Below, in pieces: positions 1 to 6,694 of a stretch of 64,000 nt of DNA. Source of the DNA: Planctomycetota bacterium (lineage in GTDB: Bacteria > Planctomycetota > UBA1135 > UBA2386); assembly GCA_965223545.1 (NCBI GenBank), contig OZ245006.1, positions 2,016,001 through 2,080,000 on the forward strand, written 5' to 3'. The notes beneath the pieces were generated by a model. That model made no database searches, was not told where the DNA came from, and saw nothing but the letters and a program-made list of their open reading frames with translations. Position 1 is the first letter of the stretch. Each line of letters starts with the position of its first letter. The position numbers were made by a program, and so were the translations under genes.

Positions 1-1008
1 CCTCTGCTCGACCACTACCGCCAGCACCCACCGGTCGCCGCGGAGCTGGCGGCGGTGTGCGCCCGGCCGACGGTGTGCTTGATGCCCGGCAGTCGCCGCG
101 CCGAGATCGAGCAACACCTGGCCCCGTTCGTCGCGATCGCCCGCCGGCTGCATCGCGACGACCCCAACCTGCGCTTCGTCATCCCGCACGTCGACCCGCG
201 CCGCGCGCGCCAGATCGAGCAGCGACTGGCCGGCCTGGATGCACCGTTCATCGAGCTGCGCGTCGGCGCGATCGGTGCGTGGTTGGCGGGCGCGCGCGCG
301 GTCCTGGTCAAGTCGGGCACCGGATCGCTCGAGGCCTGCCTGCACGGCACCCCGAGCGTGGTGGTCTACAAGCTGAGCGGCCGCTCCTGGCAGTGGATGC
401 ACCGCAACGCGCTGATCGTGCCGTGGGTCGCGGCCGCCAACTTGGTCGCCAACGCGCCGGTCGTACCCGAGCACGTGTTCTTCGACGACGACGGCTGGGC
501 CGCGGTCGAGGAGTCGCTGCGCGCGCTGCTGCGCGACGGCGAGACCCGCGAGGCATGCGTGGCGGGCCTGGCGGCGGTCCGGCGACGCCTGGGCGGCGCC
601 GGCGCCAGCGAGCGCGTCGCGCGCTGGTTGGCGGCGACGCTGGCCTCCCCCGCGGAACTCGCCGACTCGGAGCTCGAGCCCTACCGCGACCTGGCTCCCG
701 AGGACGCCGACGCCGCACTGCGCACCGACCCCGAGCTCGCGGTACTGGACGTGCGCACACCGCCCGAGCACGCCCGGCACCGCCTGCCGGGCAGCCAGCT
801 GATTCCGGTGCACGAGCTGCCACGCCGCCTCGACGAGCTCGATCCCGCACGACGCTACCTGGTCGTCTGCGAGCACGGAGTGCGCAGCGTCGCGGCCTGC
901 GAGCTCCTCGTCGAGCACGGCTTCGCCGCGATCGCCAACCTCAACGGCGGCATGGCACACTGGCTCGCGCGCGGGCTGCCCGTCGAGCGTGGAACGACAG
1001 AGCATTAG
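1..1008 (+). CDS. lpxB: Lipid-A-disaccharide synthase (5'-truncated by window edge) fused to a C-terminal rhodanese domain
   Basis: Frame 1 is open from base 1 (PLLDHY..., cf. LpxB VGHPLLD). It has LpxB motifs LMPGSRRAEI, KSGTGSLEA, PSVVVYK and NLVANAPVVPE. The last ~110 aa are rhodanese-like (LDVRTPPEH, HRLPGS, VVCEHGVRS, NLNGGMAHW). Confidence 0.88.
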   Translation, partial: PLLDHYRQHPPVAAELAAVCARPTVCLMPGSRRAEIEQHLAPFVAIARRLHRDDPNLRFVIPHVDPRRARQIEQRLAGLDAPFIELRVGAIGAWLAGARAVLVKSGTGSLEACLHGTPSVVVYKLSGRSWQWMHRNALIVPWVAAANLVANAPVVPEHVFFDDDGWAAVEESLRALLRDGETREACVAGLAAVRRRLGGAGASERVARWLAATLASPAELADSELEPYRDLAPEDADAALRTDPELAVLDVRTPPEHARHRLPGSQLIPVHELPRRLDELDPARRYLVVCEHGVRSVAACELLVEHGFAAIANLNGGMAHWLARGLPVERGTTEH

Positions 1009-1199
1009 GCGGAGCGAGCCGGCGAAGCGCCAACTGATCATTGCTGAATCCCCTGACACCAACGCGTAAACGTTCGGTGAGGATCCGCGTGTAAGCGGTG
1101 GGGCCGGGGGGCCAAAACCGAGCGTGCAGGACTTCCTTGGTCTGCCCCGCTGGAGCGCTCAAGCCTGACCGTGATCCGCAAGGGGTTGCCGATGGAGGA

Positions 1200-1560
1200 T
1201 GGAGGTACACGAGGAAGTGTCTGCCTTCGTCACCAGATCGCGAAGTGCAAAGGAGCAGCGAAGCGGGCAGCGAGGGAGGGGTCGGTTTGTAGTCACCAGT
1301 CACCAGCTACCTCTACGCAAACAACCGAGGACGACGGGTGTCCGCGCGTCAGACGGGCAACGACTGCTGCGTCCGTTCCAACGCCTGTATTCTGTCCCTC
1401 GGGGCCGGCAATTCTGACTCTTCTTCTCGAAGGGTCCTTGCTCTGCTTGAACGCTTGAACGCCTTGACCTTGTGCGGAATAAGCCCATTCTGCTTCCACA
1501 CTCGATTCAATATCGACTGCGTGATCCCTGAATTCTCCGCGAGAGATTGCACTTCTGCAT
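1200..1560 (-). pseudogene. Degraded IS630-family transposase remnant
   Basis: Minus-strand fragments in shifting frames resemble successive IS630 motifs: SLAENSGITQSILNRVWKQNGLIPHKVKAFK (HTH), FKQSKDP, IQALERTQQSLP and TGDYK (cf. THDYK). A short tandem duplication, gcttgaac x2 at ~1446-1461, coincides with a frameshift. Confidence 0.7.
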
Positions 1561-2442
1561 CACACCACTGAACCAATCGTGCAAGGCATCGCATAATGCG
1601 CCATCGACCTTAGCGTCGAACACGGCAAACATCGGCGACGAGTTGACTTCGAGAAACATCAAGTCACCTGTGTCAGCGCAGGTCTTGAAGTCCGCTGCCG
1701 CGAAGTCTAGACCAACGCCGTCGCATAGAGTGAATAACTGCGTCGGCAGCGATGGCGGCAACACGTCCAGCTTCACTGGAACGACCTCGCATGCGCCCGT
1801 TCGCCGGTAGTCGAGTTCGCTCGAATCCATCCGAAATCCGAAGCACCGACTGCCAATCCGGTAGACGCGGTACTCCGGTGCAACCAGCCGTGGCTGCACG
1901 ATCGCTGGCGCAGCAGCAACGCCGCCCCTCTCTTCCGCCGCAGCGATCGCTGCATCCGCGGTCTCGCAGAATCCACCACCGTCAACAGGCTTCACCACGA
2001 GCCCCAACGCACCGGCCACACTCGCGATCCGGTCTACCTCATTCGAGACCAGAGTGAACGGAACACTGAATCCGACCTCGCGAGCAAGCGCCAACATCTG
2101 GGGCTTGTTAGTGACTCGGACTCCCGCGACTCGGTTGGGCATCGCCACATCCGTGTGTGCCATCAGCCATCCCTGGATCGTCGTGTACCAGGCGTGAGCG
2201 CGTCGCGCGACGACGGGCCGCGGATCGTCGAGCTCAGAAAACACGTCGTAGCGGACGAACCCAGCCGACGGCCGAACATGGCGCCCCTCGACAATCAGCC
2301 GATCCTCGACGACGTCCCAGGACAAGCGCGGGGCACGACCCGGACCTACCCAGAGTTCGAGTGTCTCGACGCCGCGCGTTCTGGCGCAAGCGGCAAGCCG
2401 CCTGAGATTCGGGTCGTCAGGGCCACCGGCGATCAGAAACAC
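1507..2442 (-). CDS. ATP-grasp peptide macrocyclase (graspetide synthetase, MvdC/MvdD/PsnB-like RimK superfamily)
   Basis: Motifs TNKPQMLALAREVGFSVPFTLVSN, VVKP, PAIVQ, EYRVY, LDYRR (DxR motif of graspetide ligases), AADFK and FLEVNSSP. The GTG start follows the tyrosinase TGA-TAG double stop directly. Confidence 0.88.
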   Translation of the reverse strand: MFLIAGGPDDPNLRRLAACARTRGVETLELWVGPGRAPRLSWDVVEDRLIVEGRHVRPSAGFVRYDVFSELDDPRPVVARRAHAWYTTIQGWLMAHTDVAMPNRVAGVRVTNKPQMLALAREVGFSVPFTLVSNEVDRIASVAGALGLVVKPVDGGGFCETADAAIAAAEERGGVAAAPAIVQPRLVAPEYRVYRIGSRCFGFRMDSSELDYRRTGACEVVPVKLDVLPPSLPTQLFTLCDGVGLDFAAADFKTCADTGDLMFLEVNSSPMFAVFDAKVDGALCDALHDWFSGVMQKCNLSRRIQGSRSRY

Positions 2443-2445
2443 CTA

Positions 2446-3624
2446 TCAGAACCCACCGAAAGGGCTCCGCGGATCGCCTCCGCGGAATGGCTCTGGATCG
2501 TCGATGCGCGGGTCGGTCGGGCCCTCGCCAATGAACCTCGTCGGCGAGCCTTCCTCGCCCAAACGCAGCGTTGTCGGACCGCCTTCCTCCCCGACACGAA
2601 GCGTTGTGAGGTCCTCTCCTTGGGGTAGGGTCGGCACGGCCTCTTCGCCAATCCACTGGGATATCGGCTCCTCCCAGCGGGGAAAGGTTGGACGAGCCGC
2701 GCGCTCGGGGCACGGGCAGCCCTCTTCGTCATCGTAACAGTAACCTACATCCCGGTGATCGAGGACCATTTCAGGTGTAACAACATCCGTGACGGGGTAG
2801 CTCGGCACCAACGCGGCCATACCGGCGGCGGTTGTCTCCGATGCGCTCGCATCCCACGGCCACATAGGGTCAGTCAGACGATGTCCCTGCCCCCCCGTGT
2901 TTAGGGGGTTGTAGTTTGCGGCACCTGGATGATCTCTTTGCCACTTGGCCCAGATCCGATCGACCTGGGCATGGTGCAACCAGAAGATCGGATCGTTGGG
3001 CGAAGTCATCTGGCTCATGTCACGCCCAAGCCGAACGTGAACAATCCCGTGTGGCGGCCATTCGAGTGCGGGCCGGAAAAGGTTGAAAGTTGGCAGCGCC
3101 AAGACAGCCGCAACCGAAGCTGCCGTTGGCCACGGTGCGCCCCGGTTGAGGGCAGTGTTCCGCTGCAACCCGTCGCCGAATCTCTGCAGTTCCGCGCGAA
3201 TCGGAAAGCCCAGCGGATTGAGCGCGTTGGGGTCGCGTGCGAAGTAGCCGGAGTCGACTGTGAACGTCCCGGCCGCGCCGAGCGGGCCGAGCCGATCGTC
3301 GGCGAACAGACCAATCTCGTCGTCGTCGTCGCCTAGGCCCCAATTCCAGTAAGGGAGCGTCACGCGGGCATCGACCGACTGAAGGGCCTGCTCGAACCGC
3401 TTCAAGTACTCGCGGTGCCACGGCAAGAACGCGGGGCCGCCGTGGGCACCGTCCGTGGTCTGCGCGCCATTTAGCTGAGTAACTCCAACGTGAAGGGCTA
3501 CGAACATGTCGTACACACTGATCCCCGATCCTGGCGGAAACGTGTGCTTGAGTGTGACAACCGCCGTGAGGAACCTGTGCCACTCCTCAGCGGAGAGACT
3601 GCTGGCGTTCTTGCGCACGTTCAT
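2446..3624 (-). CDS. Tyrosinase (type-3 dicopper, MelC2-like) with a C-terminal graspetide-core repeat tail
   Basis: N-terminus MNVRKNASSLS with RBS AGAGGAGG. All six Cu-ligand His are present: VALH, AHGGPAFLPWHR, PHGIVH and NDPIFWLHHAQVDRIW. The YxY end motif (GYCYD) is followed by a ~90-aa tail of T/S-xxxx-E/D repeats. Confidence 0.92.
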   Translation of the reverse strand: MNVRKNASSLSAEEWHRFLTAVVTLKHTFPPGSGISVYDMFVALHVGVTQLNGAQTTDGAHGGPAFLPWHREYLKRFEQALQSVDARVTLPYWNWGLGDDDDEIGLFADDRLGPLGAAGTFTVDSGYFARDPNALNPLGFPIRAELQRFGDGLQRNTALNRGAPWPTAASVAAVLALPTFNLFRPALEWPPHGIVHVRLGRDMSQMTSPNDPIFWLHHAQVDRIWAKWQRDHPGAANYNPLNTGGQGHRLTDPMWPWDASASETTAAGMAALVPSYPVTDVVTPEMVLDHRDVGYCYDDEEGCPCPERAARPTFPRWEEPISQWIGEEAVPTLPQGEDLTTLRVGEEGGPTTLRLGEEGSPTRFIGEGPTDPRIDDPEPFRGGDPRSPFGGF

Positions 3625-3665
3625 CTCGGTTTCCTCCTCTCTTGATCGCTGCGTGTGATCGCCTA

Positions 3666-3965
3666 TCACGCGCGACCGTCTACGATCGCGCGCGCGAGTT
3701 CATTGGCCGAACCGTACCTCTCGTATGGCTTTTCGGTCGAATTATACTGGCCAGTGTCGGCATCGCGCGCGAACAAGATGGGCTCGTCATCTATCTTGAC
3801 TTGTTCGTCGGCCCCATCTAGCTGCACGACAATACGACAATCTTTGTAGACTGTGTCCGATACGATCGACGGCTTCCCGGCCTTTTTGCTCTTCCCGGGC
3901 TTCTTGCTCTTCCCGGGCTTCTTGCTCTTCCCGGGCTTCTTGCTCTTCGATTTGTTGCTCATCAC
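3666..3965 (-). CDS. Tyrosinase cofactor/caddie protein (MelC1-like), no Tat signal, Lys-rich N-terminus
   Basis: DTVYKDCRI..VKIDDEPI..RDADTGQYNS..PYERYGSANELARAIVD parallels MelC1 (DEVYKGRRI..VFIDG..RNADGSWIS..HY..AARAAVD). It lies directly upstream of the tyrosinase on the same strand. Confidence 0.8.
   Translation of the reverse strand: MMSNKSKSKKPGKSKKPGKSKKPGKSKKAGKPSIVSDTVYKDCRIVVQLDGADEQVKIDDEPILFARDADTGQYNSTEKPYERYGSANELARAIVDGRA
3873..3948 (-). repeat. 18-bp tandem repeat (~4 copies) encoding SKKPGK
   Basis: ttcttgctcttcccgggc is repeated exactly at 3901-3918 and 3919-3936, with partial or degenerate flanking copies. Confidence 0.92.
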
Positions 3966-4423
3966 CCTTCTCTACTGTTGTCCCATCGAAAGATGAGCGC
4001 CATACCACTGCCGGACGGTAACTTTAAGCGTAACCAAAGTGGCGCCCCCGCGTCACGGAATATTTCCAACAGCTACCGCGAGAGCCAATCGAGGTAGCTT
4101 GGGCTTCTGTCTAGGTCCAGTGGCGCGTCGTCACCACCTCCACAACGCCTTACGTTCGTGCAAGTTCGTCGCAATACTGTTTGGCTGACGTGAGCTGGTT
4201 CTTCTGCGCACCGGAGTGCCTGCGTATTCGAGCTGGCGATTACCGTGCCGCCACGGCGTTTCGGGTGCCAAGGCCAAGCGTTCGGCCTCTTTCTCCTTGA
4301 GCGCTTAGTAGAGGGTCTTCTCCCCCGTCGGCATATTCAGCACACAAGACAACAGTGCAGGTCGGCATGCCGGCCTGGGTAACGGTTCACAGCGATGTCG
4401 GATGGGCCCGGCCGCGCCGCGCA

Positions 4424-6622
4424 TCAGCGAATCTCGAGCATCGCCACCGGCGAGGTCTCCTCGACCTCGGGAGAAGTCGTCTCGAGCGTGCACATCGCCG
4501 CGTACAGCTGCAGCCCGGACAAGCCGGGGTCATTGGGAATCGGCAACACGGTCTGCGCCTCGCCGTTGCCGTCCAACACCCCTTGGAACCCGGGCAGCTG
4601 GCCGGCCAACACCGCCGCGGTCAGCACATCGACCCCCATCGGCAGCACCCGCCCCGGCGCGACGCGCACGGTCTCCGGATAGCCGACCGTCGACAGCAAC
4701 GCGAAGAACGGCGCCCGCGGGTGGTAGCGGTCGGAGAACTCGACGCCGACGGTCGCACCGAGGCTGGCCGGCCCGCGAAACGACACGAGGTCGGTGGCGG
4801 TGTCCATCGCCGTCGTCCAAGCGATCGCCAACGGCTCTTGGTCGCCATCGAAGCGGTGCACGTGCAGCACGACGGTGTAGGTGCCACTCACCGGCGGACG
4901 AAACATCGCGATCTCGAACGGGTTGAACGGCGATGCCGACGCCGCCACCACGTTGCCGGCCGGATCCTCGATCGTCATGTCGAGGTCCATCTCGAGCACG
5001 TCGGTGCTGTACGAAGAGTCCGCCTGCGAGAACCACAACGCGACGACGCGGGCGGTGTCGTGGCGATCGAGGTAGAGGGTGTGCCGATACACACCGGCAG
5101 TAAACGAGCTCGGCGTCAGCGTCGCGGAGTGGTACTGGCCGTCCTCGACCGCGCTCTGCGCCGCCGCCGCGTCGACGCCGCCGGCGCCGTCGAAGTCGCT
5201 GAGTGGCTTGCCGCCGTGGATGTTGTTCCACGCGCCCGCCATCAACATCGCCTTGACCACTTCCGGCTTGGCGAGCAGGGCGTTGTCCGTCGACGCCAAC
5301 AAGGCGGCGGTGCCACACACCACCGGCGAAGCGAACGACGTGCCCGAGCCGGCGTTGCTGGTGATCCACGGGCTGCGGTTGGTCGTGGTGCTGATGCCGG
5401 TGCCATGCGCAGCGAGCTCGGGCTTCTCGTGATTGCTGGGCTGCGGGTTGCGCGTGCTCGAGCCGGTGTTCATCCGGTCGTCGTCCCAGTCGTGCGTGTT
5501 GCGCTCGTCGGCGTTGCCGGTGGCCGTTGTGTTGAAGCCGTTGCCCGGCGTCGTGGTCGGCTGGTTGTTGCCCTGGTTGCCGCAGGACTTGAACATCATC
5601 ACGCCGAAGTTGCGGATGATGTAGTCGAAATAGCGGTCGAGGAACACGATGCTGCCGCGGTTGCCGTTCCACCACGAGCAGTTGCCGAACGAGATGCCGT
5701 TCTGCATGCCAAACGCCCAAGCAGCCGGCGTCGCGACGTCGTCGTAGCCGGGCTGCACGAACAGCCGGTCGATGCCCGGCGCGGCGCCGGTCTGCTGCGG
5801 GTGCTTGGAGCAGACGATGCCGCTGACAGCCGCCGCGTGCGAGTCGTCGGCGGCGTTGTTGCCACGCGTCACCGGCGGCAGGTAGGGATTGGCGGTGGTG
5901 ACGTTGCCGACGTCGTTGACCAAGACGCGCACTCCCTGGCCGCGAATTCCCTTGAGATGTACGAAGTCGGTGCGCGCCGTCGGCGAGGCCCATTCGTTGA
6001 TCGGCGCCGGACACACCTCGGGCGCGGCGGTGGGAAAGCAGTAGTAGGCCTGGTCGACCTCGGCGCGCGCCGCCCACCCCGGCACCTGGTCGGACGCCAT
6101 CGTCGCGCAGACGAACGGCACGAAAGGGTCCACGTAGCGCACGGCAAAACCCGCCCGACCGAGAGCGGCAGCAAACGGACCCGTGACCGTCGCCGCCAGC
6201 CGCTGGGCCTCGTCCAACGCCGTGCGCCGCGCGTCTGCCGCCGCTTGGCCCGCGTCGATGGCCCGATCCAGCGTAGCCCGCAAGTCCGGGTGCCCCGCGG
6301 GCCGGTGCAGCCAGAACACGACGTCGAGGGCGGCGGCGACCGGCAGCTGCGATCGCAGCGCGTGCCACATCTTGCCGTTCTGCACATCGCGGGTGCTCGC
6401 TTCCCGCCGCAACAGCGCATCGGCGTCGATCGGCGCGCCGGTCCGCGCGTCGGTCGTCCGCCGCCGAATCCTCCGGCTGTCGGGATCGAGCCACCGCTGC
6501 TCGCGCACGGTGACACCGAGCGTGGGGAGCACTCGGTGCTCGTCGGCCAACACGCCTGGCGGCTCGCCTTGAACCAGGAGAAGGAGAAGCGAGAGAGCGG
6601 GCACGACGACCTCCTTGGGCAT
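4424..6622 (-). CDS. Secreted S8 subtilisin-like serine protease with shared C-terminal domain
   Basis: Signal peptide; catalytic Asp (VLVND), His (DSHAAAVSG), oxyanion Asn (SCGNQG) and Ser (GTSFASP); KPELAAHG. The C-terminus has LDGNGEA..LPIPNDPGLSGLQLYA. Confidence 0.88.
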   Translation of the reverse strand: MPKEVVVPALSLLLLLVQGEPPGVLADEHRVLPTLGVTVREQRWLDPDSRRIRRRTTDARTGAPIDADALLRREASTRDVQNGKMWHALRSQLPVAAALDVVFWLHRPAGHPDLRATLDRAIDAGQAAADARRTALDEAQRLAATVTGPFAAALGRAGFAVRYVDPFVPFVCATMASDQVPGWAARAEVDQAYYCFPTAAPEVCPAPINEWASPTARTDFVHLKGIRGQGVRVLVNDVGNVTTANPYLPPVTRGNNAADDSHAAAVSGIVCSKHPQQTGAAPGIDRLFVQPGYDDVATPAAWAFGMQNGISFGNCSWWNGNRGSIVFLDRYFDYIIRNFGVMMFKSCGNQGNNQPTTTPGNGFNTTATGNADERNTHDWDDDRMNTGSSTRNPQPSNHEKPELAAHGTGISTTTNRSPWITSNAGSGTSFASPVVCGTAALLASTDNALLAKPEVVKAMLMAGAWNNIHGGKPLSDFDGAGGVDAAAAQSAVEDGQYHSATLTPSSFTAGVYRHTLYLDRHDTARVVALWFSQADSSYSTDVLEMDLDMTIEDPAGNVVAASASPFNPFEIAMFRPPVSGTYTVVLHVHRFDGDQEPLAIAWTTAMDTATDLVSFRGPASLGATVGVEFSDRYHPRAPFFALLSTVGYPETVRVAPGRVLPMGVDVLTAAVLAGQLPGFQGVLDGNGEAQTVLPIPNDPGLSGLQLYAAMCTLETTSPEVEETSPVAMLEIR

Positions 6623-6694
6623 CGAGGGTGGGGGCTTGGACCCCGCAAGATACCAAGTGGACGACTCCAGCGCGCGCGGCGTCGCCCCGGCTCG

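What the first reader, a model, noticed from the sequence alone, without database searches (positions are those of the whole stretch)
1507..3965. Caddie - tyrosinase::graspetide-core fusion - ATP-grasp ligase operon: a RiPP precursor built onto a full enzyme
Seen: three co-oriented genes with gaps of 41 bp and 3 bp. The tyrosinase has all six Cu-His and ends, after its YxY motif, in a tail containing TTLRVGEE and TTLRLGEE. The next gene, starting right after TGA-TAG, is an ATP-grasp ligase with a DYR motif. Established: TTxxxxEE (e.g. TTLAIGEE) is the repeated core of plesiocin (PsnA2, group 2 graspetide), whose Thr-Glu omega-esters are installed by the ATP-grasp PsnB; such precursors are normally short leader+core peptides. 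Inference: here the ~300-aa tyrosinase occupies the leader position, so the ligase would macrocyclise the tail of an active copper oxidase. The product could be a protease-inhibitor-armoured or latent enzyme, or co-released graspetides. No separate short precursor is visible in the island. I am not aware of this architecture being described, but I cannot check the literature.
Basis: partly seen in the sequence, partly recalled or inferred. Interest (0 to 1): 0.95.

Follow-up and report, generated by a model that had tools for sequence, protein, structure and literature searches.

The report
Tyrosinase carrying a graspetide tail
A bacterial copper oxidase ends in peptide repeats that the enzyme encoded next door most likely ties into small rings, apparently gripping the protein by a motif at its very end rather than by the usual front-end leader, which would make a whole enzyme the precursor of a modified peptide.

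Summary
Observation confirmed. A low-GC island encodes a caddie-like protein, a six-His tyrosinase with a disordered 87-aa tail (two full TTxxxxEE cores, five half cores) and an ATP-grasp ligase closest to PsnB by sequence and fold. The fusion is conserved: 27 of 120 listed homologues carry such tails, and all 5 tailed tyrosinases with downstream DNA are followed by the ligase (3 found through the ligase). The tail ends in PFGGF. A terminal FG motif closes 66 of 82 upstream partners of this ligase clade, none has the LFIEDL leader, and some have only two residues before the first core. Conversely, 12 LFIEDL precursors lack FG. Best reading: a natural follower-directed branch of group 2 graspetides, whose free N-terminus takes passengers: tyrosinase (twice independently, once CuA-degenerate), vanadium haloperoxidase, PrcB_C and DUF6174. 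Modification and follower binding are inferred, not shown; 14 partners lack FG. No description turned up in nine literature searches, but Lee 2020 and Ramesh 2021 could not be read.

The parts
3666..3965 (-). MelC1-like caddie (copper chaperone) homologue with a Lys-rich KKPGKS N-terminal repeat and no Tat twin-arginine motif
   Evidence: NF047833 E 0.016; homologues lie upstream of the tyrosinase in L044-L048; L044 homologue E 1e-4; 18-bp repeat at 3873-3962
2710..3624 (-). Tyrosinase (type-3 copper) domain, residues 1-305, with six Cu His and the YxY motif
   Evidence: PF00264 E 3.6e-38; invariant His; AF2 model confident to about residue 305, best fold matches Bacillus/Streptomyces tyrosinases
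2449..2709 (-). Disordered acidic C-terminal tail, residues 306-392: graspetide core region plus terminal motif; no Tyr, no Lys
   Evidence: pLDDT below 50 for 310-392; composition and shuffles
2584..2607 (-). Full group 2 core TTLRVGEE (T340-E347)
   Evidence: core definition from the PsnB preprint
2551..2574 (-). Full group 2 core TTLRLGEE (T351-E358)
2611..2688 (-). Three half cores with the inner-ring spacing T/S-xxxx-E (T313, S322, T332)
2497..2541 (-). Two half cores, T362-E367 and T370-D375 (TDPRIDD, recurrent in homologues)
2449..2463 (-). Terminal PFGGF: proposed follower (C-terminal recognition motif) for the ligase
   Evidence: FG end in 25 of 27 tailed against 2 of 93 other tyrosinases; 66 of 82 partners of the ligase clade; the only PFGx[FY]-stop in the genome's six frames
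1507..2442 (-). ATP-grasp graspetide synthetase of a distinct PsnB-related clade (R64, K113, K151, R192, D211-Y212-R213, E265, N267)
   Evidence: TIGR04187 E 1.3e-20, below its cut-off; PDB best hit PsnB 7DRM E 1.7e-14; Foldseek ranks 1-11 PsnB; trees
1009..4400 (.). Low-GC island holding the operon, inserted between an lpxB/rhodanese ORF and an S8 peptidase gene
   Evidence: GC 0.61 against 0.697 +/- 0.026 (17 of 2372 windows as low); GC3 0.69-0.73 against about 0.90 in the flanks; ligase found at E<=1e-15 in G000 and in one other (distant, non-clade hit) of 401 genomes of the phylum

Best explanation
The operon makes a tyrosinase that is also a graspetide precursor. Step 1 (inferred): the ligase binds the tail through the terminal PFGGF, a natural follower that does the job of the N-terminal leader of known graspetides. 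Step 2 (inferred from PsnB chemistry): it phosphorylates tail Glu/Asp with ATP and closes Thr-Glu omega-esters, two per full core (4 rings) and up to five more single rings, on the full-length protein. Step 3 (inferred): the caddie loads copper, and the enzyme stays in the cytoplasm or leaves without a dedicated exporter, as there is no signal peptide, GG cleavage site or C39 transporter. The ringed hairpins most likely act as serine-protease-inhibiting, proteolysis-resistant modules carried by the enzyme or released by unspecific proteolysis. Because recognition is C-terminal, the core-plus-follower cassette is portable and has been attached to several proteins. Shown here: anatomy, conservation, co-occurrence and family placement. 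Not shown: dehydration, binding or function. Own odds: about 0.8 that the tail is esterified, about 0.65 that FG is the recognition element, about 0.45 for a protease-inhibitor role.
For: The ligase is closest to PsnB in sequence and fold, ahead of PruB, CdnC and MdnB/C, with RimK/LysX last. It keeps the equivalents of PsnB R72 and R213 and the DFR loop. 82 of 87 non-redundant clade ligases have a core-bearing ORF within 600 bp upstream (3 of the other 5 are cut by contig ends); 66 of 82 end in FG and 0 of 82 carry LFIEDL, while 12 LFIEDL precursors beside other ligases have no FG end (L120 moved by hand to the LFIEDL group, being at the score boundary). One genome (G433) holds both systems (L010, L086). 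Bare precursors start 2 residues before the first core (L001) and keep FG even where the cores change to K-T-xxxx-EE (L067, L068, L116, L117). In L023 and L026 a PFG end lies in another frame behind a frameshift. In engineered fuscimiditide precursors a follower works, and RPFG is the proposed recognition tetrapeptide (PMC13003496). Tailed tyrosinase followed by ligase: window, L044, L010, L110/L164, L111 (5 of 5). Nine untailed tyrosinase loci with over 500 bp downstream show no clade ligase. 72 of 82 cores in tyrosinase tails have L, F or M after TT, the position recalled as P1 of plesiocin. A group 2 graspetide inhibits elastase at 0.31 uM (PMC11626197).
Against: There is no biochemical data. 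16 of 82 clade partners lack the FG end; 14 remain after the two frameshifts (7 Thiotrichaceae, L020, L037, L041 and 4 haloperoxidase fusions), so FG is not required by the whole clade. Two of 27 tailed tyrosinases end in FDRF/FNRF rather than FGxF. Three of the five co-occurrence loci were found through the ligase; only L044 is an independent test. Only two of the nine controls (L045, L047) are close relatives. The loci cluster in a few families (Pyrinomonadaceae, the Gemmatimonadales family of G436, the order of G433), so the counts are not independent. This tail has only two full cores. The 2a-specific R101 cannot be matched exactly. The two trees disagree on whether the clade sits nearer to 2a or to microviridin-type ligases. 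The same tyrosinase clade swaps many unrelated tails, and L046 has lost the tail by a stop codon, so the tail is not needed for the enzyme to persist.
Confidence: 0.6

Rival explanations
1. One reading: the folded tyrosinase (or a linker next to it) acts as the leader that activates the ligase, and PFGGF has another role.
For: The tyrosinase sits where a leader sits. The ligases of the two closest tyrosinase fusions, P0002 and L044, are sisters, which fits co-adaptation. Haloperoxidase and DUF6174 fusions lack FG, so some partners must be recognised otherwise.
Against: Close ligases serve precursors with no N-terminal extension at all and precursors with unrelated domains, mostly ending in FG. 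The tail has no LFIEDL or GG motif before the cores.
Confidence: 0.07
2. The ligase is leader-independent (constitutive) and reads the cores alone. FGxF is a separate signal (export, turnover, docking) or a by-product of coupling to the ligase start.
For: 14 intact partners lack FG. PsnB's leader contacts R181 and R192 are not kept. In the window the GGTGGG of the FGGF codons lies just upstream of the ligase GTG.
Against: FG is kept where the gap to the ligase ranges from -5 to 260 bp and in second and third precursor genes further upstream (L138, L147, L161), which rules out a ribosome-binding-site effect. The motif matches the RPFG / Phhx(1,2)h recognition motifs of other graspetide leaders.
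Confidence: 0.17
3. The tail is a latency device: ring closure positions the terminal Phe or the hairpins over the dicopper site until proteolysis, as the C-terminal extension does in Verrucomicrobium spinosum tyrosinase.
For: Precedent for an inactivating C-terminal extension with a gatekeeper Phe (PMC10526336 abstract). F389 is invariant in 25 aligned tailed tyrosinases.
Against: The same end closes precursors that have no enzyme. A caddie is present. The AF2 model leaves the tail unplaced (the model lacks the rings). CuA-degenerate fusions keep up to 25 cores.
Confidence: 0.08
4. The ligase links cores between chains, anchoring oxidative enzymes (tyrosinase, haloperoxidase) and long repeat proteins in a cross-linked matrix, or the tail is a metal-binding or charge-switch tag with no inhibitor role.
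For: Both enzyme passengers oxidise phenols (established knowledge). Repeat numbers reach 25. There is no conserved protease or exporter downstream in L001-L041. ThfB can cross-link engineered protein dimers (PMC13003496 passage).
Against: The TTxxxxEE spacing is exactly that of intramolecular plesiocin hairpins. The residue after TT is hydrophobic in 72 of 82 cores.
Confidence: 0.06
5. A recent accidental read-through or assembly error joined a tyrosinase gene to a short precursor gene.
For: The island is foreign in composition and rare in the phylum.
Against: 27 of 120 homologues at 47-61% identity carry in-frame tails, and a separate assembly gives the same letters.
Confidence: 0.02

Closest known systems
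Plesiocin system PsnA2/PsnB (group 2a graspetide; PDB 7DRM-7DRP; bioRxiv 2021.03.09.434688)
   Same: Repeated TTxxxxEE cores; single ATP-grasp ligase; best sequence and fold match; DFR loop (DYR here), R72 and R213 equivalents.
   Different: No LFIEDL leader or GG site; the cores sit on the C-terminus of a 305-aa enzyme; conserved C-terminal PFGxF; the ligase has only about 25% identity in the structural alignment and lies in its own clade, apart from LFIEDL-type ligases; no peptidase-ABC transporter.
Group 2 catalogue entry from Moorea producens 3L (cluster10071 in Makarova et al. 2022, PMC8939145, supplementary files, marked as from Lee 2020, gr_02)
   Same: An N-terminal folded domain of about 110 aa, many TTxAxGEE cores and a terminal SPFGWY.
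   Different: The passenger is not an enzyme. In the sections read and the word search of that paper, 'follower' and 'tyrosinase' occur 0 times and the architecture is not discussed.
Engineered leader-to-follower fuscimiditide ThfA/ThfB (PMC13003496, JACS 2026)
   Same: A graspetide synthetase working from a C-terminal recognition sequence; RPFG as the key tetrapeptide; a free N-terminus for fusions.
   Different: Artificial, different core and enzyme group. The sections read name no natural follower-directed graspetide.
Streptomyces MelC1/MelC2 caddie-tyrosinase pair
   Same: Caddie gene directly upstream; same fold and six His.
   Different: Scores far below the MelC1/MelC2 cut-offs; the caddie lacks a Tat motif; C-terminal core tail and ligase gene.
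Borosins and fused BURP-domain precursors (recalled, no call)
   Same: A folded enzyme domain and core peptides in one polypeptide.
   Different: There the fused enzyme modifies its own core. Here the tail has no Tyr and a separate ligase is the likely modifier; self-modification is conceivable only for the Tyr-rich haloperoxidase tails.

Membership tests
Graspetides (any group) | Adjacent ATP-grasp ligase of the graspetide synthetase radiation, not RimK/LysX | tested here: met
   NCBIfam hits only TIGR04187/04184/04185; PDB hits are all graspetide synthetases; Foldseek ranks PsnB, PruB, CdnC and MdnB/C above ArgX, RimK and LysX; tree rooted on one RimK-family row
Graspetides (any group) | Side-chain omega-ester or amide cross-links actually formed | not testable with these tools
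   Needs co-expression and MS
Group 2 graspetides | Core motif TTxxxxEE, repeated | tested here: met
   Two full and five half cores; 1 of 20000 shuffles gives two full cores
Group 2 graspetides | Catalytic and core-binding residues (DFR loop, R213, R72 of PsnB) | tested here: met
   D211-Y212-R213, R192 and R64, all invariant in 64 clade ligases
Group 2a (plesiocin type) | N-terminal LFIEDL leader and GG cleavage site | tested here: not met
   Absent here and in 0 of 82 clade partners; present beside 12 other ligases
Group 2a (plesiocin type) | 2a-specific ligase residues (leader contacts Y171, R181, R192, F203; core contact R101) | tested here: not met
   They align to V, E, E and V in the local alignment; R101 inconclusive (nearly invariant R81 lies two columns away)
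Group 2a (plesiocin type) | Ligase within the LFIEDL-type clade | tested here: not met
   Separate clade with SH-aLRT 99 in both quick trees; deeper branching unresolved
Other group 2 subgroups of Lee et al. 2020 | Subgroup definitions in that paper | not testable with these tools
   Paper not held; Moorea and Thiothrix disciformis precursors are listed as its gr_02, so this clade may already be a named subgroup
Type-3 copper tyrosinase | Six copper His in CuA/CuB motifs and the tyrosinase fold | tested here: met
Type-3 copper tyrosinase | Phenol oxidase activity | not testable with these tools
   Assay needed
MelC1 caddie | Profile match and Tat export signal | tested here: inconclusive
   E 0.016, 15 bits against a cut-off of 120; no twin-arginine motif in the sequence; position and homologues fit
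Self-modifying fused RiPP (borosin-like) | Core holds the substrate residue of the fused enzyme | tested here: not met
   0 Tyr in this tail; 0.3% Tyr in the last 85 residues of 27 tails

The most novel reading that the evidence does not exclude
A widespread clade of graspetide synthetases (288 cluster representatives at E<=1e-30, an upper bound that may include neighbours) uses a natural C-terminal PFGxF follower. This turns core repeats into a portable macrocyclisation tag that evolution has fixed on full-length enzymes (tyrosinase twice, vanadium haloperoxidase) and on other domains: omega-ester cross-linking as a native protein modification of working enzymes, with possible self-halogenation of the Tyr-rich cores on the haloperoxidase.
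Probability: 0.45. Interest if true: 0.9.

Novelty: new variant of a known kind. Interest (0 to 1): 0.8.

Why it matters
Graspetide synthetases are held to need an N-terminal leader on a short precursor, and a follower arrangement was only built by engineering in 2026. A natural follower-directed clade would show that nature got there first and would explain how cores become fused to whole proteins. It blurs the line between RiPP biosynthesis and protein modification. In practice it offers a short C-terminal tag plus one enzyme for putting protease-resistant or inhibitory macrocycles on any protein in the cell. The test is one co-expression experiment with a five-residue deletion. Cultured hosts with the ligase clade exist (Thiothrix strains, Nitrosospira lacus), though the Thiothrix partners lack FG.

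Tried and rejected
No RNA holder was listed for the locus. The ligase had no relative in viral contigs or plasmids. It has no Pfam hit. The tail-only protein search was weak: 4 hits among 142 candidates, three of them non-tyrosinase domain fusions. The ESM Atlas gave only unnamed clusters for the Pyrinomonadaceae passenger domain. Among 40 relatives of the host, P0001 found one weak match (E 1e-5). Among 401 genomes of the phylum of G433 it found 4, only G433's being tailed. The promoter scan found 0 sites and the terminator count was at chance level; no tRNA gene in the window. Runs X5 and X6 gave only scattered short pieces and were not used. Rejected: self-modification by the tyrosinase (no Tyr); FG as a ribosome-binding-site by-product (variable gaps); assembly artefact. 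The link to the neighbouring S8 peptidase was set aside (host-like GC3 0.90, outside the island). The careful tree did not finish; both ligase trees are quick trees (82 and 46 rows) and the tyrosinase tree is FastTree on 98 rows, in which long branches meet. L094/L095, first taken for RimK, scored as graspetide-type, so a RimK-family row was added. Literature searches; none listed a paper on a tyrosinase- or haloperoxidase-graspetide fusion or on a natural graspetide follower (most hits seen only as listings). Lee 2020 and Ramesh 2021 are not held, and they or their supplements may bear on novelty; the PsnB preprint's supplements were not seen.
Full report
Observation. The three genes, their gaps (41 and 3 bp) and the motifs are as described. 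The tyrosinase starts at the ATG at 3624, is 392 aa long and matches PF00264 at E 3.6e-38. Its six copper His are invariant in 40 aligned homologues. AlphaFold folds residues 1-305 confidently, leaves 310-392 below pLDDT 50, and the model matches Bacillus and Streptomyces tyrosinases. The tail holds two full TTxxxxEE cores and five further T/S-xxxx-E/D spacings, the inner-ring spacing of plesiocin (T32-E37 forms first). 1 and 9 of 20000 shuffles reach these counts. It ends in PFGGF, the only PFGx[FY]-stop in six frames of the 8.1-Mb genome, which has no second multi-core gene. The operon lies in a low-GC island (0.61 against 0.697; GC3 about 0.7 against 0.9). The ligase was found at E<=1e-15 in G000 and in one other of 401 genomes of the phylum, that one a distant non-clade hit. 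A separately assembled contig covers 1000-3915 without a difference; it may come from the source sample, so it checks the frame, not the spread.

The ligase. It has no Pfam hit, and its NCBIfam hits are three graspetide-maturase models, all below cut-off. Its best PDB match by sequence is 7DRM (E 1.7e-14), which Foldseek titles as PsnB. By fold, PsnB chains take ranks 1-11, then PruB, CdnC and MdnB/C, with ArgX, RimK and LysX from rank 32. DYR aligns with the DFR loop and R192 with R213, both essential in PsnB (passages); R64 aligns with the R72 position of an LFIEDL-type ligase. The 2a leader contacts are not kept. In two quick trees the ligase and its relatives form one clade (SH-aLRT 99), apart from the LFIEDL-type ligases L070/L086 and from microviridin-type ligases; the deeper order differs between the trees. 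A profile of 64 members finds 288 cluster representatives at E<=1e-30 among 1.84 billion.

What stands upstream of this ligase elsewhere. I pooled all loci fetched and removed duplicates by ligase sequence. Of 87 clade ligases, 82 have a core-bearing ORF within 600 bp upstream; 3 of the other 5 are cut by contig ends. 66 of 82 end in FG within the last 12 residues, and none has LFIEDL. Of the 16 without FG, two have PFG in another frame behind a frameshift, seven are Thiotrichaceae, three are L020, L037 and L041, and four are haloperoxidase fusions. Twelve precursors with LFIEDL, beside non-clade ligases, never end in FG (L120 lay at the score boundary and was counted here). Genome G433 holds one system of each type. 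Many clade precursors have almost nothing before the first core (2 residues in L001), and FG persists where the cores change to K-T-xxxx-EE. These loci come from a few well-sampled families and are not independent draws.

Reading of the motif. Makarova et al. (PMC8939145; section 5 and two of three parts of section 6 read, word search, supplementary files 1 and 2 searched) give Phhxh as the common leader signature. Johnson et al. (PMC13003496; abstract, introduction, conclusion and passages read) show that a graspetide leader still works when moved behind the core, and name RPFG as the key recognition sequence. A leaderless precursor class that ends in PFGxF is thus most simply read as a natural follower. 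This is inference.

Passengers. A C-terminal handle frees the N-terminus, and the loci show it used: PrcB_C (L007, L012), DUF6174 (Thiothrix, no FG), a weak Nif11 match (L041, no FG) and unnamed domains. Among tyrosinases, 27 of the 120 listed homologues (the best of 1421 hits among 8000 scored) carry two or more core-like motifs; 25 of 27 end in FG, against 2 of 93 others. On a FastTree tree these tails are interspersed with P-proprotein, Ig-like, lectin-like and KE-repeat tails (tail labels are mine, from motifs and the Pfam column). All five tailed tyrosinases with downstream DNA are followed by the ligase within 1-10 bp: the window, L044, L010, L110/L164 and L111. Only L044 was found through the tyrosinase. 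Nine untailed tyrosinase loci with more than 500 bp downstream show no clade ligase; only two of them are close relatives. The three fusions in the order of G433 (Myxococcota) use a different, more MelC2-like tyrosinase (E 8.7e-83 against 4.2e-48), far away on the tree, which points to an independent fusion. They have lost two or three CuA His while keeping CuB and 11-25 cores, so there the domain is probably not an oxidase. In four genomes of the family of G436 (Gemmatimonadales) a vanadium bromoperoxidase homologue (E 2e-88) carries Tyr-containing T-xxx-GEE repeats and is followed by a clade ligase. L046 shows the reverse event: a stop right after the domain, with a decayed tail behind it.

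Mechanism. Most likely the ligase binds PFGGF and closes four to nine ester rings on the tail of the intact protein. There is no GG site, signal peptide or C39 transporter, and no conserved downstream gene in L001-L041, so no dedicated release route is visible. The residue after TT is L, F or M in 72 of 82 cores. I recall this as the P1 position of plesiocin (no call), and a group 2 graspetide inhibits elastase (PMC11626197 passages), so protease inhibition or protection is the leading function, at under even odds. Latency (precedent in PMC10526336, abstract only), a constitutive ligase, and inter-chain cross-linking are the rivals. Self-modification by the tyrosinase is unlikely, as the tail has no Tyr.

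Novelty. It works like plesiocin biosynthesis and passes the group 2 tests that could be run, but fails those for 2a. Nine searches listed no paper on enzyme-borne graspetide cores or on a natural graspetide follower. I also read passages of PMC12848669 (there the follower is dispensable) and PMC10849128. However, a domain-fused, PFG-ended Moorea precursor already stands in the group 2 catalogue, and Lee 2020 and Ramesh 2021 could not be read, so the clade may have a subgroup name there. The scan's own notes held no look-alike by sequence or place, and one other domain-fused plesiocin-type precursor, which I did not test. Verdict: a real and conserved system, a new variant of group 2 graspetides. 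Interest 0.8.

Noticed in passing
L108:6726-8645 (-) with ligase 5707-6630; also L160/L166, L163/L167, L169: Vanadium bromoperoxidase homologue fused to Tyr-containing T-xxx-GEE repeats, followed by a clade ligase; in L108 two further haloperoxidase-like genes follow. No FG end; a PY motif follows the last core. Possible self-halogenation of the cores.
   Followed up: partly
L010:2912-4993, L164, L111: Myxococcota MelC2-like tyrosinases with 11-25 cores have lost two or three CuA His but keep CuB and (L010, L164) a caddie: pseudo-tyrosinase carriers.
   Followed up: partly
L046:1713-1991; P0042, P0044: Stop codon right after the CPC motif with a decayed core tail in frame behind it (L046); P0042 and P0044 also end at CPC. 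A tail-loss lineage.
   Followed up: partly
P0016, P0018, P0040, P0078, P0092, P0095: Other tyrosinases of the clade end in KE-rich or KxxDD repeats, which could be substrates of other cross-linking enzymes; context unknown.
   Followed up: no
L007, L012, L004/L009/L014 etc., P0203, P0204: The small passenger domains (PrcB_C, the Pyrinomonadaceae domain, the Moorea-type domain) share a G-x-x-x-T-x-G-[WY] ... LTP pattern by eye; they may be one fold, reminiscent of the chagasin motif (recalled).
   Followed up: partly
L149-L158, L161, L162: Short bare precursors with two conserved Cys (KTLACGEE ... CEE ... NPFGSF): a disulfide- or lactam-bearing variant of the core.
   Followed up: no
L067, L068, L116, L117: Precursors with K-T-MAIP-EE cores (possible lactam outer ring) ending in FGEK/FGEG/FGDK; the L067 and L068 ligases lack the DYR motif.
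   Followed up: no
window 3873-3962; L044, L045, L019, L024, L099: Lys-rich N-termini in caddies (KKPGKS x4, an 18-bp repeat) and in several bare precursors; role unexplained.
   Followed up: no
window 1-1008: LpxB-like domain in one open frame with a rhodanese domain.
   Followed up: no
window 1158-1198: A short stretch that also lies on other contigs of the same runs, near the left edge of the island; possibly a repeat or insertion scar.
   Followed up: no
L078: TTxxxxGEE-like precursor with a different N-terminus beside a non-clade ATP-grasp ligase in a Myxococcota genome.
   Followed up: no
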